From Leucoraja erinacea (Eukaryota), in contig NC_073408.1 of the NCBI RefSeq assembly GCF_028641065.1, forward strand, positions 9,362,001 to 9,426,000: a DNA stretch of 64,000 bases, written 5' to 3'. Below the pieces are notes generated by a model. That model saw only the letters and a program-made list of their open reading frames with translations, was not told where the DNA came from and did no database searches. Shown piece after piece: positions 14,719 to 39,477 of the stretch (position 1 is the stretch's first letter; every line of letters begins with the position of its first letter). The position numbers and the translations under genes were made by a program.

Positions 14719-15044
14719 ATGGAGTGAAGGGAGGAATATAGGTGGAAGAGTCACATAACATGAACAATGTTCTGTATATGGCTTCATCTCATATAACGGT
14801 GTAACTTCACCACTGAGGATACATGTTATCCCATAAATACAACAATACAACAAAAAAGTGGCCAATGATTTTATTCAATTTAGTACAAGACACAGAGTAC
14901 AGTGATCAATGGTTTTCCAGCTCACAAAAGTTGTTGCTACAGAATAATACAGTGATTGCTTTGAGAGGTTGCATTTCAAAGAACACAATATGACACTTTA
15001 TACACCTGATTTTTTACTGTTGCTGTTTGAGTAGAATGATTTGC

Positions 15045-15050
15045 TTTATT
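15045..15050 (-). terminator. Candidate polyadenylation signal (AATAAA) of Gig2 copy A
   Basis: AATAAA about 330 nt past the stop codon, followed by GU-rich sequence. Present at the equivalent position in copies B and C. Confidence 0.4.
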
Positions 15051-15381
15051 TCCCGAACTTGTTTTATTCCCACTGCAGCTGATGCTGATCTTCCTAATTA
15101 TCTGCTTTTCCGGTTTTAGCAACCTCCAATATAGTCACCAAAACAACCAATTTTTCACAAGATTTATACGATGAACATTGGTAGTTTATGGGATAACCCA
15201 CTTAATCCGTTTCTATTACTCTCTAAAGCATACTGAAGGTCATCTTCAAAAATAGGAGCTTTCTCCCACCGAACCCTATGTTTGATTGTCATATGTGGAG
15301 GTCCCACCACCATTGTTACACCCAAGATCACCATTATCCACATCTTCTAACTATTACCCCATTGCCCCAGTAAGATCACGA

Positions 15382-15876
15382 TTATTCAGTGAAGAACCAC
15401 TGGTTAGACAGATTACATTTGGGGTGAAATGCTTTAACAACTTTTATTCTTTTGGGATCCCAGACACAATCCTCTTCCAAACCACTTGGAACCATCCCAC
15501 AGCTTGGAGGGCACCAAGCAGTGTCATAGCCATGATAGTGCCATGTCTTCTGGAGTGGGTGCCCTTGATAATTTATCATTATGACTTTTCCCACATTGAC
15601 TCGCAACTTAAGCACAATCTTTTGGCTGGGATCGATGTCCAGGGGATACCTGCTAGCTTTTTGGAGGTCCCTACTGACATAGACTCCAGGACCGAGCATG
15701 CCACCTTTGGATCGATGGAAACCATTTTGACGAATGGCCTGTGCACTTGCAGCACTGGTTCCATGGTACATCACATAGATCTTGCCTTCAACTGGTGACA
15801 CAAGACTTTTGAGGCACGGTGGATTAAAACCAAGTCCATCTTCTTCAGCCCATATATTTTGCTGACAATAGGCCAT
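15382..15876 (-). CDS. gig2: Gig2-like protein, copy A (GCRV-induced gene 2 family; stand-alone PARP/ART-like catalytic domain), 164 aa, single coding exon
   Basis: Motifs IYVMYHGT, GMLGPGVYVSRD, ASRYP, GYDTAWCPP and SGLEEDCVWDPKRIKV are typical of Gig2. The start is the ATG at 15876 in a strong Kozak context (accATGg). The upstream part of the track ORF is an intron polypyrimidine tract ending in AG at 15905-15904. Confidence 0.92.
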   Translation of the reverse strand: MAYCQQNIWAEEDGLGFNPPCLKSLVSPVEGKIYVMYHGTSAASAQAIRQNGFHRSKGGMLGPGVYVSRDLQKASRYPLDIDPSQKIVLKLRVNVGKVIMINYQGHPLQKTWHYHGYDTAWCPPSCGMVPSGLEEDCVWDPKRIKVVKAFHPKCNLSNQWFFTE

Positions 15877-17429
15877 GGTAATGAGTCGAATTTCAAAACT
15901 TGCCTTTTGACGAAAATAAAATAAAATAAAATTAAGAGATTTATTAATTCTGTTCTTAATCCTCAACCAAATCTGATCACATTTCCCCCTCCACCCTGTC
16001 CCTTTTTACATTTCACTGCTCCACTTAGTTTCTTTTGTTTTACCATTTCCTCTTTATTTCACCTCTAGTGTTTATCATTATCTCTAACCATCTATCAATC
16101 GATTCCGCTTCCCTCGCCTATCACTTACTGGGCTTTGCCCCACCCCTTCTCTCCAGCTTCCTCGTCCCTGCTCCATCAGTCTGAAGATAGATCCCGATAA
16201 GATCCCAAAACAAGATCCATCCATTTTCCACCACAAATGCTGCGTCACCTGGTAAATTAATACTTTATACTTTGTAATCAGTACTTTGTTTTTAGCTCAA
16301 GCATCTGCATTCCTTTGTGTCTCCATGTGCCCCTCATGTTTTTCCATGCTGGTGAATCTGCCAAACAGATTTTTGGAAAAACATAAGGTAGACACAAAAT
16401 GCTGGAGTAACTCAGCAGGACAGGCAGCATCTCTGGAGAGAAGGAATGGGTGATGTTTTGGGTCAAGACCCTTCTTCAGTCTTTCGCTCCACTGCAAAAT
16501 CTGCTCAAGGTATGTTGCACCACTTGGAAAAACATACCCTGGCTTTGACTCAACCACAATCTTAAATATTGTAAAGGTATTTCAATGCCTTATGATATTG
16601 CCCTGACCAATATATCAATGAATAAATGTCTTGACTTGTATGTTGTGGTCTATATATTTTTAAGTATAAACTGGGTTATGAGTTGTCAGTTTCCTTTTAT
16701 ATGCAGAGAATAAATTAGTCAAATCTGGTTTTGTGATAGTGGAAAAGAAATTCCTTCCAGAGCAATGGATCAAATATTTACTTATCTTTCTAGATATATA
16801 TTTTGACATGTCTTCGAATCAACACTTCACACTGCCTCGGCAAGGCCACCAGCATAATCAAGAGCGAGTCTTAGTTTCTCCCCTCTCCCCTTTATGCAAG
16901 TGGTACAGAAGTGTGAAAACGTCCAGATTTAGGGACAGTTTCTTCCCAGTTGCTATCCCCAATTAGTATCACTAATTAGAGCAAAGTCCTGAGCTACCGT
17001 CCACCTCCTTGGAGACCCAATTGGACTTGATCTTGCACTAAATGTTATTCCTTTCATCCTGTATCTGTACTGTGGACAGCTTGATTTTAAGCATGTATAG
17101 TCTTTCCGCTGACTGGATCGCACGCAACAAAAAAGCTTTTCACTGCTCCTCGTATATGTGGCAATAAACTGAATAAACTAAACTCAACTCAACTAATTTG
17201 CCAATAGTTTAACCTTAGTACATCCAACCAATGTTTCTATCCCTTTCAAAATTTGCACAAAAATTTGGTTTCAATAGCAAGTTACGCAGAGTATGTGTAA
17301 AATACCAGTATCAGAAAACATCTATGGAACGATAAAGGTGAATTAACTTTAGAGGTTGAGTTCTTATATCAGAACTGGCCACTTTGGGCACAAGTTTCAA
17401 CAGTTGATTTTCTGAAGAGGAAAAGGAGT

Positions 17430-17441
17430 GAAATGGAAACT
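17430..17441 (+). promoter_or_regulatory. Intronic ISRE/IRF-E-like site (GAAATGGAAACT), also at 22944-22955
   Basis: Matches GAAANNGAAACT and is identical in the inferred intron of copies A and B. Confidence 0.4.
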
Positions 17442-18022
17442 TAAAGGCACGGGAGTCAGCACATTGACATTTTCCACAAGTTGTGTGTCTCTCTGTTCCC
17501 CGTTACTGACAACATTAAAGTGTGTTTCACCTCGTACACCGCTTATTATTTCTGCTTACAATGAAATAAAAATGCAAGAATTCATTCACAATTGATGTTC
17601 CAAAGGAAATCCAACTTCAACGCTCTTGTGATTGCAATAACAGGAAACGACTGTACAAATTTGTTGACTCAATCCTCTGCCATTCAGAGTCTTATTGACA
17701 GAAACTGTTACATGAAGCCATCAATATTTTTAACACAGTCCCATTTTCGCAGGAATACGACATGACAGCCTTAAAGATAATATCCCAGGGAAAAAGCACA
17801 CAGTTATGCAATTGGTCCCACACCCTTGCTCTTGTTCATAGCTTTTTGTTTTTGTAGTTTTCAAGTTTCCCCTGTTAAAACTTCACCTTCACTCAATAAT
17901 AATATTAATCAATATTAATTAATATTAGTATTAAATGTGTAAGAAAGTTCTCCTCTTCCCCTTTATTCCTTCACCACTTACAGTTTGGATCACACCCACA
18001 CAGGAGCAGAGATCATCATGTT

Positions 18023-18160
18023 ACTCACCGTGGTCCAGGAAGTCACACTGCCATCAGGATGGGCAAGATCTGTACTTTATTTCGAATTTTTTGAGTTTCA
18101 GTTTCAATTTCTTCAAAGTAGCTTTATAACGACAATTTTTGAGTTTATACTTCTCCGAAT
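18023..18160 (-). promoter_or_regulatory. Putative promoter and non-coding exon 1 of Gig2 copy A, with ISRE
   Basis: Donor CACG|GTGAGT (last exon base 18029). ISRE AGTTTCAGTTTC at 18094-18105 with a third GAAA half-site to 18111. TATAAA(-) at 18123-18128 and GAS-like TTCTCCGAA at 18151-18159. Confidence 0.7.
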
Positions 18161-20488
18161 TCATTCGCATATAAACATTGTTTAATGCCAATGTTTAAAA
18201 TTAGTTGAACATACAAATTAATGGAAATACATAGCAGGTTAGGCAGCATCTGTGGAGAGAAACAGAGCATTCACATTTTAGGTCTGTGGCCTGTTCGAGT
18301 CTGATGGACGTTATTGACCTGAAATGTTAACTATTTTTCTCATCACAGAATGCTGCCCAACTTGTATTAATTCCTAACTTTTCATAGTTTCCTTCTTATA
18401 GATGTGTATAAAACCATGCGAGGAATAGATCGGGTAGATGCACAGAGTATTTTGCTACGACAGTTTTAAAGGGATATGGGCCAAATGCAGGCAGGTTAGA
18501 CTAGTGTAGCTGGGACATGTTGGCCGGTGTGGGGAGTTGGGTGGAAGACTATGACTTTTTCTGCTAGCTATCTCCCCTCTCCCTCAGTCTGAAGAAGCAT
18601 CCAATCCCAAACTGTTGTCCATCCTTTTCCCTCCACATATACTGCCTGACCCGCTGAGTTCCTCAAACAGTTTATATTTTGCATCACGTACATCACCTGT
18701 TCCCTCATCTGTGATTATTAAAGAATGCTGAGAGGCTGAGAAAATAAAAGTGCTAAACATCCTTATTACGAACAGTGACTGTCTTAATGATGTGCATTTT
18801 TTAATATTTTTTTTCCTTTTTGCAAAGGATCAGTTATTAAGATGTAAGTGTCAATTAGATTTCAGTTCAATGTCATTTATATGTGATTGGAAACAAGGTC
18901 AAAGTTTTCTCAAAAGCTGCATCACCTTACTGAATGAACTGTGGCAAATTTAACATTAGATGAGCTACATTCAATTTTCCCTCATTTCACTTTAGTATAA
19001 GGCAGTGATAATCTGTGACCGGAAAAGGAAACGACTGTAGCTGATGGCACAGAGTTTATTTTTGTAAAACCACATTGTTCAATTTCCTTTTGTAGAAATC
19101 AATTAATGAACATGTAATTCTGCTCTGGACTGATTAATATTATAATTAGTAAAGTAGAATAGTGAAACTAGTCGGAGAACTAGGGTGGTGGAGAGACACA
19201 GAGAGAGGGAATGCTAGGATTACTTGAAGTTAGAGAAATCAACACCAGTGGTATGAACACTGCCACACTGTATACAGTATATTTGGACTGCAGTACTAAA
19301 CTGATCCACAATTATTGGAAGAGAATTTCGCAATAGTTCAAGCATTCATCTACCTTCGTTTGCCACAACCACTCCTGACTTGTGTGTGAGTCATCCATTT
19401 GCAATCTTCATATAGAGTTCTTCAGAAGACTGTCACCATATAGAGGTTTATAAGATTGTGACAGGGATAAATAGGGTAAATGCACAGAGTAGGGGAATCA
19501 AGAACCAGACAACATATAGTTAAAGTGAGGGGGGAGGGGGGGGGGGGAGTAGATTTAATAGGAAACTAAGGTGTGACAGGGTTATGGCAGGAAAGGAATT
19601 GAACATCTGGCATAAAATGAGAGGAATGTGAGGGTTGGAATGAGTTTTCTGAGAGACAGGCAAACTAACTGAACAAGTTTTACTATCAAAATGGAAATGG
19701 CTGAAAATAGTGCCATTGGTTAAAGATGACAAGGTGCGCAGTAGGCCAGTGGTGAGAAGTAAAAGAGTTACATAATGGAGCCAATAAAACCCCGCAGATG
19801 CAGGAATTTTGATCAAAATACAAAGTGCTGGAGTGGATCAGCAGGTCAGGCATCATCTGTGGGGGGAAGTGATAGATGACATTTTGGGTTAGAGCCCTTT
19901 TACAGATTGATTGTAGTAGGGGATAGCTAGGAAAATAAAGTGGAGGCTGGCAAGTGATAGGTGGATGCAGGTGAGGAAAGTTAGATGAAGAGGAGTGAAA
20001 TGTAAAGGTAAATGGATGGATATTGTTGGAAGGCAGACAGGTGGAAGGACACACCCGGGGGGGGTTTAGATGAACGGGGACACCAGAGGGAGAAATATAG
20101 GTGGAAGAGTCACATAATGTGGTGAACAATGTTCTGTATATGGCTTCATCTCATATAATGGTGGTACCTTCACCACTGAGGAGCCATCTTATCCCATAAA
20201 TACAACAATACAACAAAAACATGGCCAATGATTTTTATTAAATGTAGTACAAGACACAGAGTACAGTGATCAATGGTTTTCCAACTCACAAAAGTTGTTA
20301 CAACAGCATAATACAGTGATTGCTTTGGGTGGTTGCATTTCAAAGAACACAAAGTAAGACTTTATACACCCGATTTTTTATTGTCTGAATAGAATTATTT
20401 GCTTTATTTCCCGAACTTGTTTTAATCCCACTGCAGCTGATACTGATCTTCTTTCCCGGTTTTAGCAACCTCCAATGCCCCAGCAAGA

Positions 20489-20989
20489 TCAAGGATATTC
20501 GGTGAAGATCCACTGGTTATACTGATTATATTTTGGGCGAAATACATCAATAACTTTTATTCTTTTGGGATCCCAGACACAATCCTCTTCCAAACCACTT
20601 TGAACCATCCCACAGAATGGAGGGCACCAAGCAGTGTCATAGCCTTTACAGTGCCATGTCATCTGGAGTGGGTGCCCTTGATAATCTATCTTTTTGACTT
20701 TTCCCACATTGACTAGCAACTTAAGCACAATCTTTTGGCTAGGATCGATGTTCAGGGGATACCTGCTAGCTTTTTGGAGGTCCCTACTGACATAGACTCC
20801 AGGACCGAGCATGCCACCCTTGGATTGACAAAAACCGTTTGTTAGAATGGACTGTGCACTTACAGCACTGGTTCCATGGTACATCACATAGATCTTGTCT
20901 TCAATTGGTGACACAAGACTTTCGAGGCACGGTGGATTAAAACCAGGTCCATCTTCTTCAGCCCATATATTTTGCTGATAATAGGCCAT
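20489..20989 (-). CDS. gig2: Gig2-like protein, copy B, 166 aa, intact
   Basis: Same motifs as copy A, with about 29 aa differences by manual count. accATGg at 20989; tandem CAG-AAG acceptor at about 21022-21017. Confidence 0.92.
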   Translation of the reverse strand: MAYYQQNIWAEEDGPGFNPPCLESLVSPIEDKIYVMYHGTSAVSAQSILTNGFCQSKGGMLGPGVYVSRDLQKASRYPLNIDPSQKIVLKLLVNVGKVKKIDYQGHPLQMTWHCKGYDTAWCPPFCGMVQSGLEEDCVWDPKRIKVIDVFRPKYNQYNQWIFTEYP

Positions 20990-23503
20990 GGTAACGAGTC
21001 GAATTTCAAAACTTGCCTTCTGACAAAAATAAAAGAAAATAAAAGTAAGAGATTTATTAATTCTGTTCTTAATCCTTAACAAAACTGATCATATTTCCCT
21101 CTCCGCTTTCCCCCTCCACCCTGTCCCCTTTTACGTTTCACTGCTCCACTTCTATTCATTTACCATTTCCTCTTTATTTCACCTCTAGTCTTTATCATTA
21201 TCTCTAACCATCTGTCAATTGATTCCTCTTCCTTCACCTATCACTTACTGGACTTTTGAGCCACCCTTCTCTCCAGCTTCCTCGTCCCTGCTCTATCAGT
21301 CCGAAGATAGATCCCGACAAGATCCTACAATTAGATTCATTCAGTTTCCTCCACAAATGCTGCCTCACCTGGCAAATTAATACTTTATACTTTGTAAACA
21401 GTACTTTGTTTTTAGCTCAAGCATCTGCATCCCCTTGTGTCTCCATATGTCCCTCATGTTTTTCCATGCTGGTGAATCTGCCAAACAGATTCTTGGAAAA
21501 GGTAGACACAAAATGCTGCGGTAACTCAGCGGCACAGGCAGCATCCCTGGAGAGAAGGAATGGGTGACATTTCGGGTCAAGACCGTTCTTCAGACTCAAG
21601 AAGTCTTTCGTTCCACTGTGAAATCTGCTCAAGATATGTTGCACCACTTGGAAAAACATACCCTGACTCTGGCTCATCCACAATCTTAAATATTGTAAAG
21701 GCATTCAATGCCTTATCATATTGCCCTGACCAATATAACAATGAAAAAATGTCTTGACTATATAGACCATGTTGTGGTCTATATATTTTTAAGTATAAGC
21801 TGGTTTATGGGTTTTCAGTTTCCTTTTCTATGCAGAGAATACATTTGAGCAACAAATCTGGTTTTATGAGAGTGGAAAAAAAAATTGCTTCCAGAGCAAA
21901 GGATCAAAAATGTACTTATCTTTCTACATATATATGTATATTTTGACATGTCTTCGAATCAACACTTCACACTGCCTCGGCAAGGCCACCAGCATAAACA
22001 AGTCTTCATTTCTCCCCTCTCCTCTTTATGCCGGTGGTACAGACATGTGAAAACCTCCATATTTAGGGACATTTCCAGCTGCTATCAGGCAACTGAACCA
22101 TCATATCAGCAATTAGAGCACGGCCCTGAGCTACCATCTACCTCATTGGAGACCCTATTGGACTTTATAGACTGATTCCTGGGATGGCAGGACTTTTATA
22201 TGAAGAAAGACTGGATAGACTTGGCTTGTACTCTTTTAGGACTGAGATGAGAAAAAAAAAATGTACACACAGTGGTGAATCTCTGGAATTCTCTGCCACA
22301 GAATGTCATTGAGGCCAGTTCATTGGATATATTTAAGAGGGAGTTAGATGTGGCCCTTGTGGCTAAAGTGATCAGGGGGTATGGAGAGAATGCAGGTACA
22401 GGATATTGAGTTGGACGATCAGCCATGATCATATTGAATGGTGGTGCAGGCTCGAAGGGCCGAATGGCCTAAACCTGCACCTATTTTCTATGTTTCTATG
22501 TTTCTATGTTAATCGTGCACTAAATGTAATTCCTTTAATCCTGTATCTGTACTGCGGACAGCTTGATTTTAAGCATATATAGCCTTTCTGCTGACTGGAT
22601 CGCACGCAATAAAAACGTTTTTCAACACACCCCAGATACATGACAATAAATTAAACTAAACTAAACCAGACTAAACTTAACTAATTTGCCAATCGTTTAA
22701 CCTTAGTACATCCGACCAATGTCTCTATCCCTTTCAAAATTTGCACAAAATTCTAAATATGGTTTCAATAACAAGTTACGCAGTTGTAATTTAAACGTAA
22801 AATACCAGAATCCCTCAACAAATCAGAAAACATCTATGGAACGAAAAAAAGCTGAGCTAACTTTAGAGGTTGAGTTCTTATATCAGAACTGGCCACTTTG
22901 GGCACAAGTTTCAACAGTTGATTTTCTGAGGAGGAAAAGGAGTGAAATGGAAACTTAAAGGCACGGGAGTGAGCACATTGACATTTTCCACAAGTTGTAT
23001 GTCTCTCTGTTCCCCGTTACTGACAATATTAAAGTGTGTTTCACCTCGTACACCACTTATATTAGCCATCTGCTTACAATGAAATAAAAATGCAAGAATT
23101 CATTCACAATTGATGTTCCAAAAGAAATCCAACTTCAATGCTCTTGAGATTGCAATAACAGGAAACGACTGTACAAATTTGTTGATTCAATCTTCTGCCG
23201 TTCAGTAACTGTTGCATGAAGACGTCAATATTTTTAACACAGTCCCATTTTCCAAGGAATATGACATAACAGCCTTAAAGATAATATCCCAGAGAGAAAG
23301 CACACAGTTATGCAATTAGTCCCACACCCTTGCTCTTGTTCATAGCTTTTTGTTTTTGTAGTTTTCAAGTTTCCCCTGTTAAAACTTCACCTTCACTCAA
23401 CATTACAACCCGTAAATGTGTAAAAAGGTTCTCGTCTTCCCCTTGATTCCTTCACCTCTTACAGTTTGGATCACACACACACAGGAGCAGAGATCATCAT
23501 GTT

Positions 23504-23612
23504 ACTCACCGTGCTCCAGGAAGTAACACTGCCGTCAGGATGGGGAACATCTGTCCTTTATTTTGAATTTTTTGGGTTTCAGTTTCAATTCCTCAAAAGT
23601 AGTTTTATAACG
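23504..23612 (-). promoter_or_regulatory. Putative promoter and non-coding exon 1 of Gig2 copy B, with ISRE
   Basis: Donor CACG|GTGAGT (last exon base 23510). ISRE GGTTTCAGTTTC at 23575-23586. Homologous to the copy A region. Confidence 0.7.
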
Positions 23613-24769
23613 TCAGTTTATGAGTTTATACTTCTCCAAAGTCATTGGCTTATTAACATCAAAGGCTAATGTTTAAAATCAGTTGAACATGCAAATTAAT
23701 GGAAATACACAGCAGGTTAGGCAGCATCTGTGGAGGGAAACAGAGCATTCACATTTTAAGACTGTGGCCTGATCGAGTCTGATGAAGGGTTATTGACCTA
23801 AAATGTTACCTATTTTTCTCGTCACAGAATGCTGCCCAACTTGTATTGATTTCTAACTTTTCATAGTTTCCTTCTTGACAAAATCTGTCAAGAAATTTGA
23901 GCTGCTGCATAGTGCCAACACCCTCTGTTGTTCTGGTCTTAAGATCTTACTCATTTGCTCACTAATGATTTCCATGTGTTAAAATGTTGTTTATATCAGA
24001 AATTAAAATTAAAACATAACATTTATATTAGCCATCACTTACAAAATAATAGTCATAGAATTATGCAGCATGGAAATAGCCCTCTTGCGCCCAACTCATC
24101 TATGCTGACCAAGATCATTGACGCCATTCCCATTTGGAAACAGAAATTAAAACAAAGAAAATATGGAAGCAAACAGGTCTGGCAACACCTGTGGTGAGAA
24201 ATTGTTAATGCTTCAGATGAATGATCTTTCATCAGGCAGACATGAGACCTCGCAAGTATACTTGGCTTGATTGGATTTATCCAATTGGGTTATACCCCAG
24301 GTCTACAGAGTCACAGTAAAACTGTACATAACAAAAGTAGCATTGAGAAAACTATGACTATGGCAATCAGCTGTCGGGTTTAGTTGGGGCCACAAGAGAC
24401 TGCAAATGCTGGAATCTTGAGCAAAAAAAAACAAATTACAAAAAACAACTCAGCAGGCCAGGCAGCATCTGTGGAGGGAATGGACAGATGACGTTTCGGG
24501 TGAAGGGTCAATGTCGTTCGTCCTTTTCCCCATCACAAATACTTCCAGGCCTGTTGAGTTCCCCTATCAGTCTGCTTTGTGGTCAGGTTGTAGATCCTTG
24601 TATCAGTTTGTGAAGGGTTAACCAGGGTTAAATACGTGACTTCCCTCATCTTGAGTTGGGATGCTTGGTGTTGTATGACCAGTACTGAGTGCTGACAGGA
24701 ATCTTCCACAGAGGAGCTGAATGGAAAGCAGTTCATGGCTGCAAAAATGTCATGGGTTTGTATGTGGAA

Positions 24770-26050
24770 GGTCATCTCACAAATCTGATTGAGGTGTTTG
24801 AAGATGTGACCAAAACGGTTGATGAAGGCAGAGCTGTAGATGTTGTATATATGGACTTCAGCAATCCATTCAGCAAGGTTCCACGTGGTAGGCTGCTCTG
24901 GAAGGTTAGATCACATGGGATAGGCGACAGATAGCACAATGGGCTAAGAGTTCGGCTGGCGACCGGAAGGTAGCCGGTTCAAATCCCGCTTGGAGTGCAT
25001 ACTGTCGTTGTGTCCTTGGGCAAGACACTTCACCCACCTTTGCCTGTAATGGAATGTAATTACGGCGGCAGGCGCGGGCACACCGCGACGCCCTGTGTCT
25101 CCCTTTCAAGGGAGATGCTAAAAATGCATTTCGTTGTCTCTGTACTGTACACTGACAATGACAATAAATTGAATCATTTCATTTCATTTCATTTCATCCA
25201 AGGAGTGGTAGCTGAACGGATAGAAGATTGGTTTCATGGAAGGAAGCGGAGGGTGGTGGTGGAAGGCTGCAAGAACTGGGGGCCTGTGACTAGTGGTGTG
25301 CCTCATGGTTCGGTGCTGGGCCTGTGACTAGTGGTGTGCCTCATGGTTCGGTGTTGGGCCTGTTACTGTCTGTCCTCTACAATCAATGATTTGGTTGAGA
25401 ACATACATGGCAAGATTAGAAAGCTTGCAGATGATACAAAAGTGGGTGGTATTGCAGAAAAATTGTAGCTGGATCATACTCGGTTGGCCAGGTGGGCTGA
25501 GGAATAGTTGATAGAATTTAATACAGATAAATGTGAGGTGTAACATGGGAAGGACCTTCGCACTGATAGGTAGGGCTCTGAGGAGTGTTGTAGGCGTAGG
25601 GATCGTGGAGTGCAGGTACATGTTTCCTTGAAGGTGGAGTCACAGGTAGATAGGATGATCAAAAAGGCTTTTGACCTTCATCAGTCAGAGTATAGAAGTT
25701 GGGAGGTCATGTTGCAGTTATATAAGAAGTTGGTGAGGCCACATTCAGAGTATTTTGTCCAGTTCTGAGGAAAGATGTTGTCAAGCTGGAATGGGTACAG
25801 AGAGGATGTATGTTGCCAGGTCTCGAGGGTCTGAGGTCTAAGGGGAGGTTGAACAGGCTGTCTAAATTCCTTGGAGCATAGGAAGGTGAGGGGTGATCTT
25901 ATAGAGATGTATAAAATCATGAGAGGAATAGATCGGGTAGATACACAGAGTCTCTTGTTCCGACAGGTTTAAAGGGATATGGGTCAAACGCAGGCTGGTT
26001 AGACAAGTGTAGATGGGACGTGTTGGTCGGTGTGGGAAAGTTGGGTGGAA
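24770..26050 (+). mobile_element. Degenerate CR1 LINE ORF2 (RT) fragment
   Basis: LTNLIEVFEDVT..VDEGRAVDVVYMDFS and VTSGVPHGSVLG. Internal 38-bp tandem duplication at about 25280-25360. Confidence 0.88.
24925..25196 (+). mobile_element. Second tRNA-derived SINE family, with a different (Rex/Babar-like) tail, nested in CR1
   Basis: Same head as 38208-38418. Tail catttcgttgtctctgtac...tgacaataaa followed by (CATTT)n. Confidence 0.72.
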
Positions 26051-28499: not shown

Positions 28500-31400
28500 T
28501 ATGTTTCCATGCTGCATCTCTAAACTAAACTAAACTAAATGAATATCAATGGGAATAACAGCGAGGCTTCGACAGAAAGCAAGTTTCCTCAAGTACTATC
28601 TGTGGATGATCAAACTAATTGTTTTATGTGAATTGATATTTTTAAAATCCTCCATTTTTATCATTGTTTGGTTAAACATATCACATTCAGGGCCATAACG
28701 TGATGGGCAATGCTGACTTTGCGAGTCATAACCACATCCTGTGAATTAATCATTACAATTTACCATTGCTCTCTGATATAAGACTCGTATTAGATGTCCA
28801 CATGTGGAACCTTTGTTTAATTTGTCCTTTCTGATACTGAAGGTGTCCAGTGAATGTAGACTCAGTCTCACAAGTGTATATCGCCTCGCCTTGTAAGAAA
28901 ATGATTATATGGATAATAAGCACCAGTAGGGCTATCAACCATGCAGGGCAGTCACCAACAAAGCCCTGTCCTCAATCAATCAACGCAACTCTCAGGTGTA
29001 ATTGCAAGCAAAAAGCCTGATTTTTATTTCTCCCTTCCATTGAATGAATAGAGATGCTGTCTGTATCAGTCATATTAGTCAGCCCATCTGCAGTCAGGAG
29101 TTAACCCTGATCATTCCTGGACAGTTATGCTCTGTTTTATTAGTGAGGACATTTGCCAGTAAACTTTGCAGCACTTGAAATTAAAGGCGAAAATGGGTCT
29201 CATATATAAGAGGTACAAGTTATAATTTGTGCAGTTAAACAGAGAATCATCAGCAAGTGGTAATTATTTGTGGTAATTGCAAATTTGAAACTATAAAATA
29301 ATCTAAAAGATACAACATAACTGCAAATTCATCAACTTGATTGAAAGATCTAATTTGTCACTGGGTTAAAAAAAACACAATGCAAAAATGAACCATTTTA
29401 TAGAGTGAGAGGGAGCCTATGTTGTACGCACAGTGTGAACTACATTTCCAGTTACTATAAAAAGATAAGAAGATATCTTTTAAGAGCAGACGTAAACCGT
29501 ACCCCCCCCTCCCCCCTCCCCTTGAGCCTGCACAGACATTCAAGAACAACCCAGTTGATCTCATCCAGGCTCAGCTCCATTAGTTTGCCTGTTTACTATA
29601 ACCCTTGATACATCCAAATTCTTAAATCTTCTCTCAACCCTCAATGCACCTGATGAGAATGCCACAAGATAAAGAAACATGCCTACGTTGTGTTGTTGTC
29701 ACCAGTTAAATAGCCCCTGCAGGCAGATACACCTCCAAGGGATGCAGCTGAATTAGGCAGTGTTAAAGGTTACTAACTATAATACAGCACGGAAGGCCCC
29801 ATAGCAGAAGTCTCCACATCGCGGGGCTGGAAACTGGAAATATCCTGAGCTAATTCTGCTACCACCATCATCTATTGCAACAAGTGATGCCTTCCACTAA
29901 TTGGCGCCGGAAGCTTGCGTCCTTTTCAGGATGGACGATGGCAGCGAGGTCAACATTTGTAATAAGATGGACACGAAAAAAAGAAGACAGCACGGAAACA
30001 GGCCCTTTGGCAGAGTGGACGGAGAATGGCAGAGTAGACTTGGTGGGCCAAATGGCCTAATTCTGCTCATATGAGCTTCTGAACTGAAAGACCATCTTTC
30101 TTCCTCCTGCACTCCAATGAATATAGTCCTAGCCTGCCCGACCTCTCCATATAGCTCAGACTCTCATAAATGCAACATCCTCATAAATCTTCTCCGCACT
30201 ATTCAGTTTAACTACATCCTTCCTAGAGGTCCTTTCTTTTACCACTAACACAAGGGTAATGATAGCAAAGGAATTGAACAGCTGGCAGGAAATGTGAGGG
30301 TTGGAATGGCTTTTCTGAGAGAGAGAGACAGGTAGACTCACAGAACATGTTTTACTATCGACATGGTTGAAAGTAGTGCCATTGGTTATAGATGAAGAGG
30401 TGCGCAGTAGGCCAGTGGTGAGAAGAAAAAGTTACATCATGGAGACAAAAATAATGGAAGATGCTGGAATTTGGATCGAAATGCAAAGTGCTGGAGTGGA
30501 TCAGCAGGTCAGGCATCATCTGTGGGGGGAAGTGATAGATAACATTTTGGGTTAGAGCCCTTCTTCAGATTGATTGTAGTAGGGGATAGCTAGGAAAATA
30601 AAGTGGAGGCGGAACAATGCCTGGCAAGTGATAGGTGGATGCAGGTGAGGAAAGTTAGATGAAGAGGAGTGAAATGTAAAGACAGAGGGATGGATATTGT
30701 TGGAAGGCAGACAGGTGGAAGGACACACCCGGGGGGGGGGGGGTTTAGATGAACGAAAACACCAGAGGGCGGAATATAGGTGGAAGAGTCACATAATGTG
30801 GTGAACAATGTTCTGTAGATGGCTTCATCTCATATAATGGTGGTACCTTCACCACTGAGGAGCCATGTTATCCCATAAATACAACAATACAACAAAATAG
30901 TGGCCAATTATTTTATTCCATGTAGTACAAGACACAGAGTACAGTGATCTATGGTATTCCAGCCCACAAAAGTTGTTGCTACAGAATATTACAGTGATTG
31001 CTTTGAGAGGTTGCATTTCAAAGAACACAATATGACACTTTATACACCTGATTCTTTACAGTTTCCGAGTAGAATGATTTGCTTTATTTCCTGAACTTAA
31101 TTTATTCCTACTGCAGCTGATGCTGATCTTCCTAATTATCTGCTTTCCCGGTTTTAGCAACCTCCAATATAGTCACCAAAACAACCAATTTTTCACAAGA
31201 TTTACACAATTAAAATTGGTAGTTTATGGGATAACCCACTTAATCCGTTTCCATTACTCTCTAAAGCATACTGAAGGCCATGTTCAAAAATAGGAGCTTT
31301 CTCCCCCCGAACCCTAAGTTTGATTGTCATATATGGAGGTCCCACCACCATTGTTACACCCAAGATCACCATTATCCACATCTTCTAACTATTACCCCAT

Positions 31401-32355
31401 TGCCCCAGTAAGATCAGGATTATTCGGTGAAGAACCACTGGTTAGACCGATTATTTTTTGGGCGAAATACATCAATAATTTTTATTCTTTTGGGATCCCA
31501 GACACAAACCACTTTTAACCTTCCCACACCTTGGAGGGCACCAAGCAGTGTCAAAGCCATGATAATCTATCTTTTTGACTTTTCCCGCATTGACCAGCAA
31601 CTGAAGCACAATCTTTTGCCTGTTATCCAGATCTAGGGGATATCTGCTGGCTTTATCAAGGCTACGTGTGACATAGACTCCAGGACCGAACGTGCCATCT
31701 TTGGATTGACAGAAACCACATTTACGAATGGCATGCGCATCTGCGACATTGGTTCCATGGTACATCACGTAGATCTTGTTTTCAACTGGTGCCAAACAGC
31801 TCGTGAGGCACCGTGGAATATGGCAGGCCATGGTAACGAGTCGAAGTTCGAAACTTGCCTTTTGACGAAAATAAAAGAAAATATAAGTAAGAGATTTATT
31901 AATTCTGTCCTAAATCATTCACCGAATCTGATCATATTTCCCCCTCCTCTTTCTTACTCCACCCTCTCCCTTCTCACATTCCACTTTTCCGCTTCTTTTC
32001 TTTTCCTATATCCTTTTGTCTCTGTTTTACCTTTAGACTTCATCATTACCTCTAGCCATCTCTCAATCAATTCCTCCTCCCTCACCTTTCACTTCCTGGG
32101 CTTTGCCCGACCCCATCTCTCCAGCTTCCGCGTCCCTGCTCCGTCAGTCTGAAGAAAGATCCCGACAAGATCGCAAAACAGGAACCGTTCATTTTCTACC
32201 ACAAATGCTGCCTCATCTGGCAAATTAATATTTTGTACTTTGTAAAAAGTACTTTGTTTTTAGCTCAAGCATCTGTAGTTGATGAGTCTCCATATGTCCA
32301 TATGTCCCTCATGTTCTTGCATGCTGGTGATTCTGCCAAACAGATTCTTGGAAAC
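28500..32355. repeat. Third duplication unit (C)
   Basis: 28500-29570 matches 12455-13650; 30255-30775 matches 19578-20090; 30775-32355 matches 14725-16380. Confidence 0.88.
31472..31831 (-). pseudogene. Gig2-like copy C, truncated and frameshifted (119 aa)
   Basis: Relative to A it is 13 codons shorter at the N-terminus and has a 33-nt in-frame deletion (QGHPLQKTWHY). An 11-nt deletion removes the EED codons and shifts the frame; the original C-terminus (WDPKRIKIIDVFRPK) continues in another frame. Homology to the A/B intron ends at about 32355 and no exon-1/ISRE copy was found. Confidence 0.8.
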
Positions 32356-33294
32356 TCTAGAATGTTTGACATACGTGTCACATGTTTGTGATTAGTACAG
32401 ATGTCAGAGGTTATGGGGAGAAGGCAGGAGAATGGGGTAAGAAACATAGAAAACATTGAAAAATAGGTGCAGGAGTAGGCCATTCGGCCCTTCGAGCCAG
32501 CACCGCCATTCAATATGATCATGGCTGATCATCCTAAATCAGTACCCCAGTCCTGCTTTCTCCCCATATTCCTTGATTCCGTTAGGAGGGAGAGATAGAT
32601 TGGCCATGATCGAATAGCGGAGTAGACTTGATGGGCCAAATGGCCGAATTCTACTCCTATTCCCTCTGACCTTATGACACTACCTGCCCATATACTATCC
32701 CACCAGTTCACAATCACATGTAGCTCTCAGCTTTCTCTCATATGATGAGAGTGATACCAAGGAGCCAATGTGCAGGAGGATGACAAAGAAGTGTATAAAC
32801 TATACTGAGCATGATGGGGGACTTCAATCATCCCAAAATAAGCTGGGATAATAATAGTGTTAAAACCAGAGGAGGTGAAGAATATGGAATATGTGCGGAA
32901 GATAAGATATGGTCTTGGCTTTATGTTTGGCATGGACATTGTGGCCCATAGAGACTATTCTTTGTGCTGTACCATTCCATGTCCTATGTTATTCCGTACG
33001 TTTCATTGTTGCATTTGCCTCAAAATCCTGATCAAAATATTTAGCCTTCAAATTGCAAACTCATGAGGAAACTGTATGAACATGTCTTGCAGTGGCACTA
33101 GAAGCTAGAAAAACCAATGAGGAATACAAGTCTGTACAAGGAATCTCCTATCTGCATGGAACAATGAAATAGATAATTTGCACAGAGCAAGTTAGCTACA
33201 ATACTGACATCTACCTGACAGTGTGGAGTATTGCTCAGATATGTCCTGTCTACTAATTGGAACCTTCTTACTATCTTGAGTGGGGGTGGGGGTA

Positions 33295-33990
33295 AAGACT
33301 TCATTGGGGTCATCAGGTGGGACCCTCCTTCCTTGGTGTTTCGTTGATAGGCCCACGACACCTCCAGAGGGCTCAACAGCAACACCTGACGTCCCAGGTG
33401 CGCTCCTCTCCTTTACCCCTCTTGCTGGTCATTTTGCAGCCCAGTTGGAGTCCTTCCTCTTATGCCACAGCCAGTTGCTGCTTCGCTCGGCAGCCTCTGA
33501 CAGCGACCTGACGGCTTGCCGGAAGGCCTGTCCTCGAACTCCCATTCCCTTCAGGAGTCTGGTTGTTGACATGGCTACAAACCCTCTACAACCAACCTCT
33601 ACAAGGAGCACCTGAGTACGCCAGCTGCGTTGTTCTGCCTCGGCTGCCTAGCCTGAATACCTCAGACATTTGCGTTCATGTGCTTCACCAACTGCAGCCT
33701 CCCAAGGCACAGTTAACTCCACAAAGTGCAGGGACTTCTGTGAGGTTGACCACAAGATCAGGTCCGGACAGAGATTAGTTGTGATGATCTCTGGTGGAAA
33801 GATGAGCTTCTGGTCTAGATCAGCCTGCATTTACCAGTCCCGGGCAGTGTCCAGGAGAGTCGGTTCCTATCTTGCAAATGGCTTCTCTAGAAGTTGTCCT
33901 GCCTTTACAACAGAGGTGGTGTTCGAGAAACCGGGCATTAGGGGAGGGAGGGCATCTCCTTCCTTCCAAGGTAATCGCCAGTTGTCACAG
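33295..33990 (-). mobile_element. Hero-like (R2 group, restriction-like endonuclease) non-LTR retrotransposon 3' fragment
   Basis: PDLILWS...VELTVPWE...AHERK.LRY and VEVGCRGF...AAERSSNWLW are RLE-domain motifs. Confidence 0.82.
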
Positions 33991-34341
33991 GACCTGATTG
34001 TGCCTCCAGGTGTAGTGGCCTTGTGAGCAGACTGGTTTTGGAAATATATCACCATTCCTTTGCTGTCACTGAGTCAAAATTCTGGAACTTGTCACCATCT
34101 TCGTAGGCAAAGCCACACCGTATGGACCACAGCTCATCGCCTTCTGGAGGGCAATTAATTGCTGATTCATTCTGAATAAATAAAAAGACAATTGTCACAA
34201 AACAGCTGCAGAAATAAACGAGGCAAACATGTGGATGTAATGAACCTTTGGCTGCAGTAATGACTGTCAGTCATGGTCAATTTAACAATCATTCTCACTA
34301 TCTAGTCTATTTTCTTTGTCAACAATGCAAAAGTTTACAGA

Positions 34342-34830
34342 AGCCAATTAACCAGCAAGCCTGTATGTCTTTGGAGTGTGGGAGGAAACCGGAGCACCCG
34401 GAGAACTTCCGCACGGTCACAGGGAGAACGTACAAACTCTGTACAGACAGTTCAAGTTCAAGTGAGTTTGTTGTCATGTGTCCCTGATAGGACGATGAAA
34501 TTCTTGCTTTGCTTCAGCACACAGAACATAGTAGGCATTTACTACAAAACAGATCAGTGTGTCCATATACCATGATATAAATATATACTGTACACATATG
34601 AATAAATAAACTGATAAAGTGCAAATAACAGAAAATGGGTTACTAATAATCATGGTTTTGTCCGAGCCAGGTTTAATGGCTGTGGGGAAGTAGCTATTCC
34701 TGAACCTGGTTGTTGCAGTCTTCAGGCTCCTGTACCTTCTACCTGAAGGTAGCAGGGAGATGAGTGTGTGGCCAGGATGATGTGGGTCTTTGATGAGACA
34801 GCACCCCGTAGTCAGGATAGAACCTGGGTT
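34342..34830 (-). mobile_element. HE1/V-SINE-like SINE split by a Rex1/Babar-like LINE 3' fragment (about 34451-34797)
   Basis: The SINE breaks at 'acagacag' and resumes at 'gacagcaccccgtagtcagg'. The insert starts with a (TTCAAG)n tail. Confidence 0.7.
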
Positions 34831-35461
34831 TGGAACTGCAACTCAGCACACGTGACAACAATAAACCAATAAACCAATTCTAATGCCAGGTTTTTTACTT
34901 TAAAATTATTTGAATGGTTTCTGCATGAATCTGACTATCAGGTGTACTTAAAAGCAGTTCAGACGCATTCGATAGTGAAGGCCATCAGGGTGTTCGGGGT
35001 TGGAGATTCAATGGCTCTGCTCAACACACAGAGTTTACATCACCAAAAAGTGAGCTATACAGAAGCAACTACAGATGTCAGCCCCTTCTCCTGTGTGGCC
35101 ACTCTACACAATTCACCCTCATTTTGTCAATCGTATTTGACCAGGACATAGAGGATCTCTCACCAGCTCATCTTTATCTGAAGACATGGAATGCTTTATA
35201 GTGATGCAAGAGGGAAGATTAATGTGCGTATATGACAAAAAATTATTCATGTTCAAAAAGTATTAGTCTAAAAGCGAGGCATTGATCTTTTTGCGTCCAG
35301 AACCAAAGACAACCAGGCAAAATCAGGACATGGTGGGAATTCTCTGCAATGTGGGAAGCATCTGATGGATGAAGGAGGCAGGGCCAAAGGGAGAGAGAAA
35401 ATAGACGAGGGAGGAAGAGATAAATTGATTAGTCGGGTACCACTGGCTCACGACTTTTGGG

Positions 35462-35762
35462 GAGGACACAGTGGTAGAGTTACTACCTCACAGCACCAGA
35501 GACTCGGGTTCGAGTCTGACTAAGGGTGCTGTCTGTGTGGAGTCTGTACGTTCTCCGTGTGACCTGCTTGGGTTTTCTCCAACATCTTCATTTTCCTCCC
35601 ACACTCCAAAGACGTACAGGTATGTAGGCTAATTGGCTTGGTACAAATGTACAAATTGTCCCTAGTGTAGGATAGTGTTAATGTGAGCGGATGGCTGGTC
35701 AGTGCGGACTCGGTGGGCCGAAGGGCCTTTTCTGCACTGTATCTCTAAAACTAAAACTAAAA
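35462..35762 (+). mobile_element. HE1/V-SINE-like SINE
   Basis: Head, core and (CTAAA)n tail as at 3355. Confidence 0.85.
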
Positions 35763-37992
35763 ACAGAAAATAAAAAAGATTTTTTATAAAATCATTTGAA
35801 TGCATTACACTCACAGTTTATCTTCTCAAGACTTAGAGTTTAACTTCATCTGGTAGCAGCCGAGTAATTTTTTTACGAATACCAGTTATTATGAACAGGT
35901 TGGGATTTTGATCAACACCTTCCACAAAGTTGCTTATGCAGTATCATAGAAACAACATTTCCTCGTGTTGGTGTGACATCCACCATCAAGAATAGTGTTA
36001 CCTCTTAATTAACATCAAACTAGTGACAACGTTGAAACAGTAAACTCATTATTGTGTATAGCACAACATTACCCACAGAATGAAGTACAGCCGCACCTTC
36101 TGCCTGTGGCTGCAACGTGAAACGGAGCAGCCCGCGATCCTTACAAAGAAAAAACTACAACAGTTCAGGTCTTTGTTTTCATTTGCCACAATCTTCCCTC
36201 TCCTCTGCTTGTTCATCTACAGTTGCAACAGTCATTCAGTGGATACTCTTCGTGAGTTCTTCAGCTAGTCAGGGCTGACTGTTTCATCATCACAGCCTCA
36301 TGCCCAGTATATTGCCTATCCCATCCCTACCTGGTTCCATCTGCTCATCAGGTTATGGGGAGAAGGCAGGAGAATGGGGTTCAGAGGGAGAGATAGATCA
36401 GCCGTGATTTAATGGCGGAGTAGACTTGATGGGCCGAATGGCCTAATTCTACTCCTTTCTGATCTTATGAACCCTCCCTTATCTGGTTCCACTTATCATC
36501 TACTAGCCTCTGTGCCTCCCCTCTTCCCACTTGACTCCTTCTACATTTTTTCCTTATATCTTTCCACTTATCATTCACTAGCCTCGATCCCTAAACATCC
36601 ACCTCCCTCTCACCTAACCTGGTTCCAACCACTTATTCCACCTATCACCCTCATTACCCCATCCTACCCCTCCCTCTCACCTCTTTATACCATCTTCCGT
36701 CTACACCCTCCGTCTTGATGCAGGTTCTTGATCTAAAACATTAATCATCCTTCCACCTCCGCAGTTGTTGTTTGTTTCTTGTCCTAGAATCGCCCCTGGA
36801 AACTGTGCAAAAACAAAGAGCTGGAAGATCTCCTTGGGTCAGGCGACATCTGTGGAGGAAATCACCGTTGTGTGCCTGCATACAGATTTGTACATCATCT
36901 GGATATGCACAATCGTGAAGGAGGAGCTAATGTAGCAATTGGAACCCTAGTGTGAGAAGCAATGGCAATTACACTTACTTTCCCAAAGCAAACTAAATTC
37001 TTTGCAACACCAGCCATTTCTGATAGTGTGTTCAAGGTATGACCCTATTAATTCTGGCAAAGAATCAGAAATAATTAATCTGGTGAGAGATAAGACAATG
37101 CGGTTAAACTGGGAAAAGCAAAAGCTCTGATCTAAAGCCACAGTCTAGGTCTTGGTACCATATTAAAGAAGGAGCAGGAATGAAATTATTAAATATCATC
37201 TTCAAAAGCAGACAACGCCAACAAGCATATGTCATCAATATGATTCCTTAATTCCATTTTTGGAAACGTCTTTGCTTATAGAAAGATAGATGGTCATTAT
37301 GCACTCCAACATCTCTTAGCTCTTGTGTGGGAAGGAACTGCAGATGCTGGTTTACACCGAAGATAAACACAAAATGCTGGAGTAACTCAGCGGGCCAGGC
37401 AGAATCTCTGGAGAGGAATGGGTGACGTCACCCATTCCTTCTCTCTTAGCTCTTAAAGGGTGATCGATGGTTAGCATCGTCTCGATGGGCCAAAGGGCCT
37501 GTTTCCATGCCGTGTGTCTCTAAACTCTAAACTCAGCAACATGGGATGAATCACTTTGATCATCCCGGATGTCACATTGACCCAGCACTTCCTTGACCTT
37601 TTTCTATTGGTAAAGCAGATCCAGTGATTAACAAGAGACCAGATTACTGTCATTGATGACCTTAAGCTCTGTAGCCCAACCAAGATCTCACATACTGCAT
37701 TTCTCCATTCCACTGGAATGAACTTCAGTCTTGGTGGGACCTGATATGAATCAGCGCCGCACTCATTCCAGTTTGTTACATAGTCATAATTTTCTTTCTC
37801 TCACTTGCAGATTGAAGATGATGTTGTCATCATTTGCCCCGTCCCTTGAGAGTGCTTTGTCTTATTCCTTTAGCTACTGACATACACTCCAGGATCCAGA
37901 AGCCCAGTCTTGGATGAAATAAAACCTGAACATATTTTATTAGTGGCATTGTTCTATGAGTGCCTTGATAGGGAATATATCTTCCATCATTC

Positions 37993-38495
37993 TGGGCAGC
38001 ACAGTGGCGTAGTGGTAGAGCTGCTGCCTTACAGCGCCAGAGACCCGGGTTGGATCCTCACCACGGTTGCTGACTGTACAGAGTTTGTATGTTCTTCCTG
38101 TGACCTTGTGAGTTTTCTCCAGGTGTTCCGGTTTCCTCCCAGAACGTACAGGTTTGTAGATAAATTGGCTTCTGTAAATTGCCCCTGGTTTGTAAGACAT
38201 AGAAGTATTTTTTTTTAATCTTATTTATATAGCACATTTTTAGTCAACTTGCATTGACCCCAAAGTGCTTCACATAATTACATTACATTTACACACAGGC
38301 AAAGGTGGATGAAGTGTCTTGCCCCAAGGACACAACGACAGTATGCACTCCAAGCGGGATTCGAACTGGCTACCTTCCGGTCGCCAGCCGAACACTTAGC
38401 CCATTGCGCCATCTGTCGTCACGTGATCGATGGTCGGCATGGGCTCGGTGGGCCGAATTGCCTGTTTCCATGCTGTATCTCTGAACTAAACTAAA
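37993..38495 (+). mobile_element. HE1/V-SINE-like SINE inserted in Gig2 copy D, with a nested second SINE
   Basis: Head and core at 37993-38190, tail at 38420-38495. Confidence 0.82.
38208..38418 (-). mobile_element. Second tRNA-derived SINE family, with L2-type tail
   Basis: Head cgacagatggcgcaatgggctaag...gttcgaatccc; tail aagcactttgg...aaatgtgctatataaataag. Confidence 0.75.
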
Positions 38496-39477
38496 CTCCT
38501 GGCTTGACATCAGATGTCTGCTATCTTTGCAAGCAGCCTGCCACCCAGAACACTCTTTCACTTCTGTTGCTTGAAACCTGCACAGGTGACATGTTCATGG
38601 GTCTCACTGAGGTCTCACACATTGTTGAGAGAAAACTTTTCTGACAAAGCTAATGAGATAATAATGTTAATGAGCTAAGTAATACCTTGGTCTTACACAG
38701 AGAGACAGATTGAAAAGCCTTTTAAAGTAGTGAGTTGGATTTATACGCTCATATCCTATCTATACTTGGTGTCCCTCTTCTCAGTTGGATAAATTAGAAT
38801 GGGTTCTGGGATCTTGATGTACCCCTTGTTGGACCTGGACCCTCTCAGTCCAGTCAGGCTTTTATGGTATTGCTTGCTCTGGAGATATACACTTTGACGA
38901 GGTCTTCCATGTACACGTCCCAGCAAAGTGTTCTACACCCAACTCAAGTAGGTGCTCTTTCAATTCTTCTCTCCGTTGGAACCCTTTCCTTCACCTGCTG
39001 CCCCATCCCACACCTCCACCCATTCCCCCTCAATCACAGGATTCCTGCTCAAACGCCCATGCCACAGAGTCTCTTGCCCAGAGTAGGGGAATCGAGGACC
39101 AGAGGACATAGATTCAAGGTAAATTGGAAAAGATTTAATAGGTATCTGGCAGGGTAACGTTTTCACACAAAGGGTGGTGGGTGTATGGAACAAGCTGTAA
39201 GATGAGATAGTTGAGCCTGGGACTATCCCAACGTTTAAGAAACAGTTAGACAGGTACATGGATAGGGCAGGTTTGGAGGGATATGGACCAAGCTTAGGCA
39301 GGTGGGACTAGTGTAGCTGGGACACGGTGTGGGCAAGTTGGGCCGAAGGTCCTGTTTCCACACTGTATCACTCTATGACTGTATATCATCCTGGATTGTT
39401 TGCTTGTCTCCAAAGTAGAATTAATCTCTCATTATTCTGATTCACAAGTTGAGACCATTGCCACCCACTTGAGACTG

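What the first reader, a model, noticed from the sequence alone, without database searches (positions are those of the whole stretch)
14725..38577. Birth-and-death cluster of interferon-controlled mini ADP-ribosyltransferase (Gig2) genes in a probable cartilaginous fish
Seen: four co-oriented Gig2-like copies in about 24 kb (two intact, one truncated, one decayed), with ISREs beside a short upstream exon in both intact copies. Established: Gig2 is a virus/IFN-induced family of non-amniote vertebrates, first described in grass carp cells and related to the PARP catalytic domain. Inference: this is a rapidly turning-over antiviral effector locus. To my knowledge its enzymology and its role in chondrichthyans are poorly characterised.
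Basis: partly seen in the sequence, partly recalled or inferred. Interest (0 to 1): 0.8.

Follow-up and report, generated by a model that had tools for sequence, protein, structure and literature searches.

The report
Skate Gig2 mini-PARP gene cluster
This stretch of a likely skate genome holds two intact and two broken copies of Gig2, a known fish antiviral gene family, and the intact copies keep the active-site residues of PARP enzymes, so they likely tag targets with ADP-ribose once interferon, as predicted from their promoters, switches them on.

Summary
Confirmed, with corrections. Four minus-strand Gig2 copies lie here, the only Gig2 locus found in this genome, whose nearest relatives are skates. 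A and B are intact two-exon genes with tandem ISREs just before a short first exon; a spliced B-like contig confirms that exon. C has three deletions, one removing the catalytic glutamates; its orthologue is broken in Amblyraja, while its clade is intact in Rhinoraja. D is no recent copy: it is an old remnant of the long gig2o/p class. That class and the short class both span sharks and teleosts (teleost monophyly rejected, p=9e-5), so they predate the teleost genome duplication credited in print. A and B differ only at variable positions (0 of 28 at conserved columns). The fold is PARP-like. Gig2 keeps H-Y-(E) plus the Met and Lys of the PARP1/tankyrase acceptor site (260 of 318 domains), so it is probably an active enzyme and possibly a minimal poly(ADP-ribose) polymerase; neither was tested. 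The family, its ISREs and its presence in skates are already published; it was found in crucian carp cells, not grass carp. Interferon induction was untestable. The scan's earlier notes held no Gig2 locus.

The parts
15382..15876 (-). Gig2 copy A coding sequence, 164 aa, intact short-class Gig2; H38, M60, Y66, K73, Y77, E134/E135
14850..15903 (-). A exon 2 (27-nt 5' UTR, CDS, 3' UTR; AATAAA at 15068, 15050, 14875; the 3' end is approximate)
   Evidence: acceptor and poly(A) signals; contigs of two probable RNA runs cover it
18029..18075 (-). A exon 1 (short 5' exon; its start is approximate), donor GTGAGT at 18028
   Evidence: 89% identical to B exon-1 region; donor; splicing inferred from B
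18095..18111 (-). A promoter tandem ISRE (three GAAA half-sites)
17428..17442 (+). ISRE-like site in A intron (copy in B at 22942)
20489..20989 (-). Gig2 copy B coding sequence, 166 aa, intact; same six active-site residues as A
21017..23509 (-). B 5' UTR intron, GT..AG
   Evidence: skipped in contigs of runs X1 and X2; boundaries
   Evidence: tables 5 and 8
23576..23592 (-). B promoter tandem ISRE
21812..21828 (-). second ISRE-like site in B intron (weaker copy in A at 16698)
31420..31831 (-). Gig2 copy C pseudogene: 39-nt deletion near 31825, 33-nt deletion at 31565, 11-nt frameshifting deletion at 31508 that removes the E134-E135 codons; no first exon or ISRE found
   Evidence: orthologue placement; other organisms
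37530..38564 (-). copy D: decayed remnant of a long-class (gig2o/p, most likely gig2o) gene, in collinear pieces with stops and frameshifts
37984..38498 (.). interspersed repeats inserted into the 5' part of D (about 37984-38189, 38275-38418, 38423-38498)
12458..13656 (.). flank duplicated at 28502-29568 (about 15% diverged): marks the older duplication that separated the A/B and C lineages
19578..20087 (.). spacer downstream of B, duplicated downstream of C at 30253-30766 (8.7% diverged)

Best explanation
This is the single Gig2 locus found in a likely skate genome, with two intact genes (A, B) whose ISRE promoters are predicted to switch them on after interferon, and whose 164-166 aa PARP-fold products likely use NAD+ to add ADP-ribose to viral or host targets and so restrict virus growth. 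Shown: gene structure, ISREs above chance, splicing of a B-like transcript, fold, and conserved H38/Y66 with Met60, Lys73, Tyr77 in register with PARP1 and tankyrase. Inferred: induction through IRF/ISGF3 binding (by analogy with zebrafish DreI), E135 as the catalytic glutamate, transfer of single or short ADP-ribose units, and the antiviral effect. The locus turns over on two time scales: recent duplication with surface divergence (A, B) and stepwise decay (C) among skates, and an old loss of the long, Cys/His-tailed gig2o/p class (D), which sharks still carry.
For: Homology: 1104 of 1140 candidates at E<=0.001, many named Gig2; zebrafish gig2i 61%. Fold: pLDDT 83; Foldseek best tankyrase-2 E 4e-6; VIA Z 9.4, rmsd 3.0, 125 aligned. 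Active site: ungapped register with this genome's tankyrase-type and PARP1-type exons; H38 317, Y66 330, K73 325, Y77 317, M60 300, E135 302 of 337 domains. Selection: 0 of 28 scored A/B differences at the 64 columns conserved in >=80% (p 5e-8); nonsynonymous divergence 0.143 at the other 100 codons against 0.059 in two non-coding blocks (p 1e-5). Promoter: same layout as zebrafish DreI (ISRE at -48 to -39, 70-nt first exon, 5' UTR intron), whose ISRE is needed for induction and whose overexpression blocks two viruses (PMC3296712). Turnover: C pairs with the broken Amblyraja domain (100/99) inside a clade with intact Rhinoraja genes (96/98); C-like contigs of two other organisms carry different extra lesions. 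D: best hits are Mustelus gig2o and Chiloscyllium.
Against: No enzyme assay for any Gig2 was found in print. The E135 = E988 register rests on motif reading and one gapped HMMER alignment to PARP4; ungapped scoring and a profile search did not recover the catalytic-Glu exons. No induced sample was available; in two raw RNA runs the coding exons had depth 0 (X14) and under 1 (X21). In salmon, 8 gig genes with ISREs did not respond (10.1101/2025.07.01.662619). The spliced X1 contig differs from B at 38 letters, 18 of 34 checked being A's letter, so it is a related allele or orthologue, not B itself. Whole-gene dN/dS of 1.38 is not significantly above 1 (p 0.56), and non-coding A/B divergence ranges 5.6-8.4% among four blocks, so positive selection is likely, not shown. 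VIA Z of 9.4 is only modestly above background.
Confidence: 0.65

Rival explanations
1. Gig2 is a true poly(ADP-ribose) polymerase: a stand-alone 150-residue domain that builds chains, controlled only by its expression, perhaps also draining NAD+ in infected cells.
For: M60 and K73 match PARP1 M890 and K903 without gaps. These positions mark chain-makers: PARP4 has Asn and Thr, PARP3 has Arg at 890, K903A turns PARP1 into a mono-enzyme (PMC10711553), and M890V cuts activity over 200-fold (PMC6486540). 260 of 318 ungapped domains keep all six residues. The best solved matches are tankyrases.
Against: No conserved His equivalent to PARP1 H826 was seen among conserved columns; PARP3 keeps the Lys yet lacks chain synthesis. 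The gig2o class has Leu or Thr at position 60 (7 of 7). Small phage ART domains match the model as well as tankyrase does (E 3e-6). The 337 domains were picked by likeness to A, which inflates conservation.
Confidence: 0.22
2. The enzyme acts on nucleic acid or on NAD+ itself (RNA/DNA ADP-ribosylation or NADase), not on proteins.
For: It has no targeting domain; weaker fold matches include Tpt1, DarT, MbcT and RES domains (Z 4.6-6.8); zebrafish DreI restricts both an RNA and a DNA virus (PMC3296712).
Against: Sequence and fold are closest to protein-modifying PARPs; those weaker Z-scores are within background.
Confidence: 0.08
3. Gig2 is a pseudo-enzyme, or A and B are unregulated copies drifting toward loss like C.
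For: PARP13 and the TASOR pseudo-PARP score almost as well structurally (Z 8.9, 8.0); basal expression is near zero; dN/dS is near 1.
Against: All 64 conserved columns are untouched between A and B; the putative catalytic residues are kept across sharks, teleosts, amphibians and lamprey; C, by contrast, lost several invariant motifs.
Confidence: 0.05

Closest known systems
Gig2 (GCRV-induced gene 2) family; zebrafish DreI/gig2i, crucian carp Gig2 (PMC3617106, PMC3296712)
   Same: 61-66% identity, same single-domain size, same ISRE / short first exon / 5' UTR intron layout, tandem clustering with pseudogenes; already listed in little skate and spiny dogfish by ESTs.
   Different: Only two intact copies and one locus; the long gig2o/p class is lost here. 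The papers call the C-terminal half a novel domain; here the whole protein is one PARP-type fold.
Shark gig2o/gig2p (Mustelus XP_078055280.1, Chiloscyllium GCC23168.1) and teleost gig2o/gig2p
   Same: D matches them in collinear pieces, from the N-terminus to the start of the Cys/His tail; the Mustelus model runs o, p, short in the same order as D, then C/B/A here.
   Different: D is dead (stops, frameshifts, repeat insertions); no intact long-class gene was found in this genome.
Tankyrase and PARP1 catalytic domains (ARTD, H-Y-E, chain-forming)
   Same: Fold, H/Y/E positions, acceptor-site Met and Lys, stacking Tyr.
   Different: About 19% identity; no ankyrin, SAM, zinc-finger, WGR or helical domains; no H826 equivalent seen; activity untested.
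Interferon-induced mammalian PARPs (PARP10, 12, 13, 14)
   Same: Interferon-linked antiviral ADP-ribosyltransferase fold; rapid evolution (roles recalled, not tested).
   Different: Those are large multidomain proteins lacking the catalytic Glu; Gig2 is a bare domain that keeps it.

Membership tests
Gig2 family | Full-length homology to described Gig2 proteins | tested here: met
   (gig2i 61%, crucian carp Gig2 66%); A and B nest in the short-class clade
Gig2 family | Weak PARP-signature N-half plus conserved C-half | tested here: met
Gig2 family | ISRE just upstream of a short first exon and a 5' UTR intron | tested here: met
   compared with PMC3296712
Gig2 family | Induction by interferon, poly(I:C) or virus | not testable with these tools
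   none of the 24 listed runs is described as stimulated
Gig2 family | Antiviral effect on overexpression | not testable with these tools
   shown in print for zebrafish DreI only among papers read
Gig2 family | Host is a non-amniote vertebrate | tested here: met
   nearest proteins are skates: Amblyraja 85%, Rhinoraja 74%
ARTD/PARP-type ADP-ribosyltransferase | PARP catalytic fold | tested here: met
   (Z 9.4, rmsd 3.0, 125 aligned)
ARTD/PARP-type ADP-ribosyltransferase | His and Tyr of the H-Y-E triad | tested here: met
ARTD/PARP-type ADP-ribosyltransferase | Catalytic Glu of the triad | tested here: inconclusive
   E134/E135 in 302 of 337 domains, just before the strand at 137-139; gapped alignment to PARP4; register not recovered
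ARTD/PARP-type ADP-ribosyltransferase | NAD+-dependent transfer | not testable with these tools
   needs biochemistry
Chain-forming PARPs (PARP1/2, tankyrases) | Acceptor-site Met (890) and Lys (903) | tested here: met
   M60, K73; roles from PMC10711553, PMC6486540
Chain-forming PARPs (PARP1/2, tankyrases) | Acceptor-site His (826) or equivalent loop | tested here: inconclusive
Chain-forming PARPs (PARP1/2, tankyrases) | Synthesis of poly(ADP-ribose) | not testable with these tools
   needs biochemistry
Birth-and-death gene cluster | Duplicates, pseudogenes and different copies kept in different lineages | tested here: met
gig2o class (copy D) | Closer to gig2o than to gig2p or short class | tested here: inconclusive
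   profile bits o 27.7, p 25.2, short 18.8: long class clear, o over p marginal; D's branch was too long to place

The most novel reading that the evidence does not exclude
Gig2 is a stand-alone, interferon-induced poly(ADP-ribose) polymerase of about 150 residues, a vertebrate chain-maker outside PARP1/2 and the tankyrases, present in at least two classes since the last common ancestor of jawed vertebrates and lost in amniotes; skates have pared it down to one class whose surface is diversifying against viruses.
Probability: 0.22. Interest if true: 0.8.

Novelty: new member of a known kind. Interest (0 to 1): 0.42.

Why it matters
The locus itself is an expected member of a published family. 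Its value is in what it makes testable. The mechanism of Gig2, a strongly induced antiviral gene of fish and amphibians, is described as elusive in the papers read; the residue map gives direct mutants (H38, M60, K73, E135) that separate no activity, mono-transfer and chain synthesis. A minimal chain-maker would extend the short list of PAR polymerases and name a likely host enzyme opposed by macrodomains of aquatic viruses. The dead D copy and the shark gene order also correct the published history: the Gig2 classes are older than the teleost genome duplication.

Tried and rejected
Homologue search with D read through its stops: 0 of 5 candidates passed; D was classed by local alignments instead. 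D in the 341-row tree: branch length 6.3, unplaceable, left out of later trees. Homodimer prediction with NAD: no answer, score 0.00; not used. Ungapped and profile searches for the catalytic-Glu exon of skate PARPs: not recovered. No holder of the stretch is on record as RNA; no C-specific transcript seen in X1; neither is evidence. Six-frame Pfam scan of 1-14400 and 38001-64000: only reverse-transcriptase remnants, no neighbour gene. A further ISRE-like site at 52476 was dropped: it sits in repeat-like sequence with no nearby donor seen. A/B as an assembly duplicate was rejected: 8% coding divergence, both types in run X6 and two such domains in Amblyraja. 'Specific to vertebrates' is not strict: a Picozoa protein scores E 3e-45, as the 2013 paper also noted for algae. 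Aravind et al. 2015 was not held.
Full report
Observation. Four Gig2-like copies lie on the minus strand. A (15876-15382, 164 aa) and B (20989-20489, 166 aa) are open and 82% identical; both pass Pfam's PARP cut-off. C (ATG 31831) and D (about 38560-37530) are broken. Searches of the 2.19-Gb genome with A (4 matches of 11 candidates), a teleost gig2o (4 of 8) and the PARP family (22 of 31, 2 of them A and B) found Gig2 only at this place; these counts are lower bounds. Pfam scans of the flanks found only reverse-transcriptase remnants.

Identity and host. A finds 1104 proteins among 1140 candidates, many named Gig2; the best single-domain hits are a skate (Rhinoraja, 74%), rays (65%) and crucian carp Gig2 (66%). 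A profile search added a thorny-skate (Amblyraja) model at 85%. The host is therefore very likely a skate.

Gene structure and control. Each intact gene has a tandem ISRE (A 18111-18095, B 23592-23576), a short first exon with a GTGAGT donor (18028, 23509), a 2.1-2.5 kb intron with two more ISRE-like sites, and one coding exon. GAAANNGAAACY occurs 6 times in the window, all in A or B, against 0.4 expected from 100 shuffles; as A and B are duplicates this is about three independent sites. I laid 7 of 24 listed runs. Contigs of X1 and X2 (two organisms, two studies) join B exon 1 to exon 2; allowing one letter of difference, the joint is the GT..AG intron 23509-21017. The X1 contig differs from B at 38 letters, and 18 of 34 positions checked carry A's letter, so it is a related allele or orthologue. 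No joint for A was among those listed. Raw reads gave depth 0 (X14) and under 1 (X21) on the coding exons, as expected of an uninduced gene but no proof of it. Zebrafish DreI has the same layout, needs its ISRE, and blocks two viruses when overexpressed (PMC3296712).

Protein. AlphaFold2 on a 56-row alignment gave pLDDT 83. Foldseek ranks tankyrase-2 first (E 4e-6, TM 0.49); VIA-align gives Z 9.4 for tankyrase-2, 8.9 for PARP13 and 8.7 for PARP1, with model residues 5-155 spanned. So the C-terminal half, called a novel domain in PMC3617106, is part of one PARP-type fold. Small phage ART domains match equally well (E 3e-6). Residues 57-77 of A align without gaps to this genome's own tankyrase-type (GGMFGAGIY..K...Y) and PARP1-type exons, which I named by their motifs: M60 = M890, Y66 = Y896, K73 = K903, Y77 = Y907, spacing 6-7-4 (Y907 numbering recalled). 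H38 aligns to the PARP His. E134-E135 precede the strand at 137-139; E135 matches E988 by motif register and by a gapped alignment to PARP4, but two scoring tests did not recover this. Among 337 domains, taken from the top-listed hits and so biased to close kin, 260 of the 318 without gaps keep all six residues. M890 and K903 form the acceptor site of chain-makers; PARP4 has Asn/Thr and PARP3 Arg at 890 (PMC10711553, PMC6486540), and the skate PARP3-type exon shows that Arg. No H826 equivalent is evident. An active transferase is thus likely; chain synthesis is possible.

A versus B. They differ at 29 residues; 7 synonymous and 34 nonsynonymous changes give dN/dS 1.38, not significantly above 1. 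None of the 28 scored differences falls in the 64 columns conserved in at least 80% of domains (p 5e-8). At the other 100 codons nonsynonymous divergence is 0.143, against 0.059 in two non-coding blocks (p 1e-5); two further blocks give 0.078 and 0.084. A's 3' UTR is closer to C's (6.3%) than to B's (7.8%) though their introns are 15.5% apart, which points to conversion or unequal crossing-over and weakens the yardstick. Purifying selection on the core is shown; diversifying selection elsewhere is likely.

Copy C. It has lost 39 nt (W9-E11 motif), 33 nt (H106, Q109, W112) and 11 nt (E134-E135, with frameshift), and no first exon was found. It pairs with the first, broken domain of the Amblyraja model (100/99), which shares the 33-nt gap but keeps the glutamates, inside a clade with intact Rhinoraja genes (96/98, 53 of 341 rows). 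C-like contigs of organism B add a 7-nt deletion; those of organism E add 1-nt deletions and appear to keep the 11 nt (two overlapping contigs of equal depth). One skate lineage keeps the C type, others keep the A/B type while C decays stepwise: birth and death.

Copy D. Its best hits among 260 proteins are Mustelus gig2o and a Chiloscyllium protein. Pieces match in order from the N-terminus (38555) through the YHGT and GVY motifs to the start of the Cys/His tail (37532), split by repeats and frameshifts; the main piece scores 48.5 bits against at most 23.9 in 20 shuffles, while the outer pieces are weak alone. Class profiles score o 27.7, p 25.2, short 18.8 bits. The Mustelus model strings o, p and short domains in the order of D then C/B/A. 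A bowfin model joins a gig2o-type domain to BUD13, and BUD13 lies 1.7 Mb away on the same contig here. In the tree the o class holds shark, axolotl, bowfin and teleost (86/92); holding 13 teleost or 11 chondrichthyan rows together is rejected (AU p 9e-5 and 1e-4, 32 rows; groups chosen after earlier trees were seen). PMC3617106 ascribes the two teleost sets to the teleost genome duplication; the classes are older, though their split onto two chromosomes may still stem from it through reciprocal loss.

Literature seen. PMC3617106: parts 1-4 of 6. PMC3296712: abstract, first part of Results, passages. 10.1101/2025.07.01.662619: part 1 of 7 and passages. Passages only: 10.1101/693333, PMC5512222, PMC9503650, PMC11687183, PMC10711553, PMC6486540. 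These already give the family, its discovery in crucian carp cells, ESTs in little skate and dogfish, ISREs, tandem expansion, and the label ADP-ribosyltransferase. Searches listed no enzyme assay, acceptor-site analysis or shark locus study, but subscription journals, Aravind et al. 2015 and An et al. 2025 were not available, and no supplements were read; they may hold such points.

Verdict. Real, and a new member of a known kind. The locus is ordinary for the family; the active-site map and the age of the classes are the useful additions. Interest 0.42.

Noticed in passing
P0124, P0193, P0204, P0182 (C-termini): Long-class gig2o/p proteins of sharks and teleosts end in a Cys/His motif resembling a zinc finger that the short class lacks; a strict pattern hit 4 of 270 proteins, and the shark tails are similar by eye. 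It may be a targeting module.
   Followed up: partly
window 14728-15130 vs 30766-31168: A's 3' UTR is closer to pseudogene C than to B, suggesting gene conversion or unequal crossing-over.
   Followed up: partly
window 18029-18060 and 23510-23552: A exon 1 holds a three-codon upstream ORF; B has a different, out-of-frame upstream ATG near its likely start. Either could damp translation.
   Followed up: no
window 23876-25897: About 2 kb present upstream of B but not A, with reverse-transcriptase-like remnants (CR1-type by recall), starting about 300 bp upstream of B's ISRE.
   Followed up: no
P0240, P0237, P0236: A Picozoa protein and two close, unnamed proteins carry a Gig2 domain (E about 1e-45) with H-M-Y-K-Y and E135 kept in P0240, inside 770-1100 aa proteins; bears on the family's origin.
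   Followed up: partly
G000:C32:11080166-11083044: BUD13 exons 1.7 Mb from the cluster; in a bowfin gene model BUD13 is joined to a gig2o-type domain.
   Followed up: yes
window 40911-41608, 43148-43708, 49649-50286, 53345-53845: Many related LINE 3' fragments, some nearly identical (95-99%), indicating recent activity; no host gene detected in 39-64 kb.
   Followed up: no
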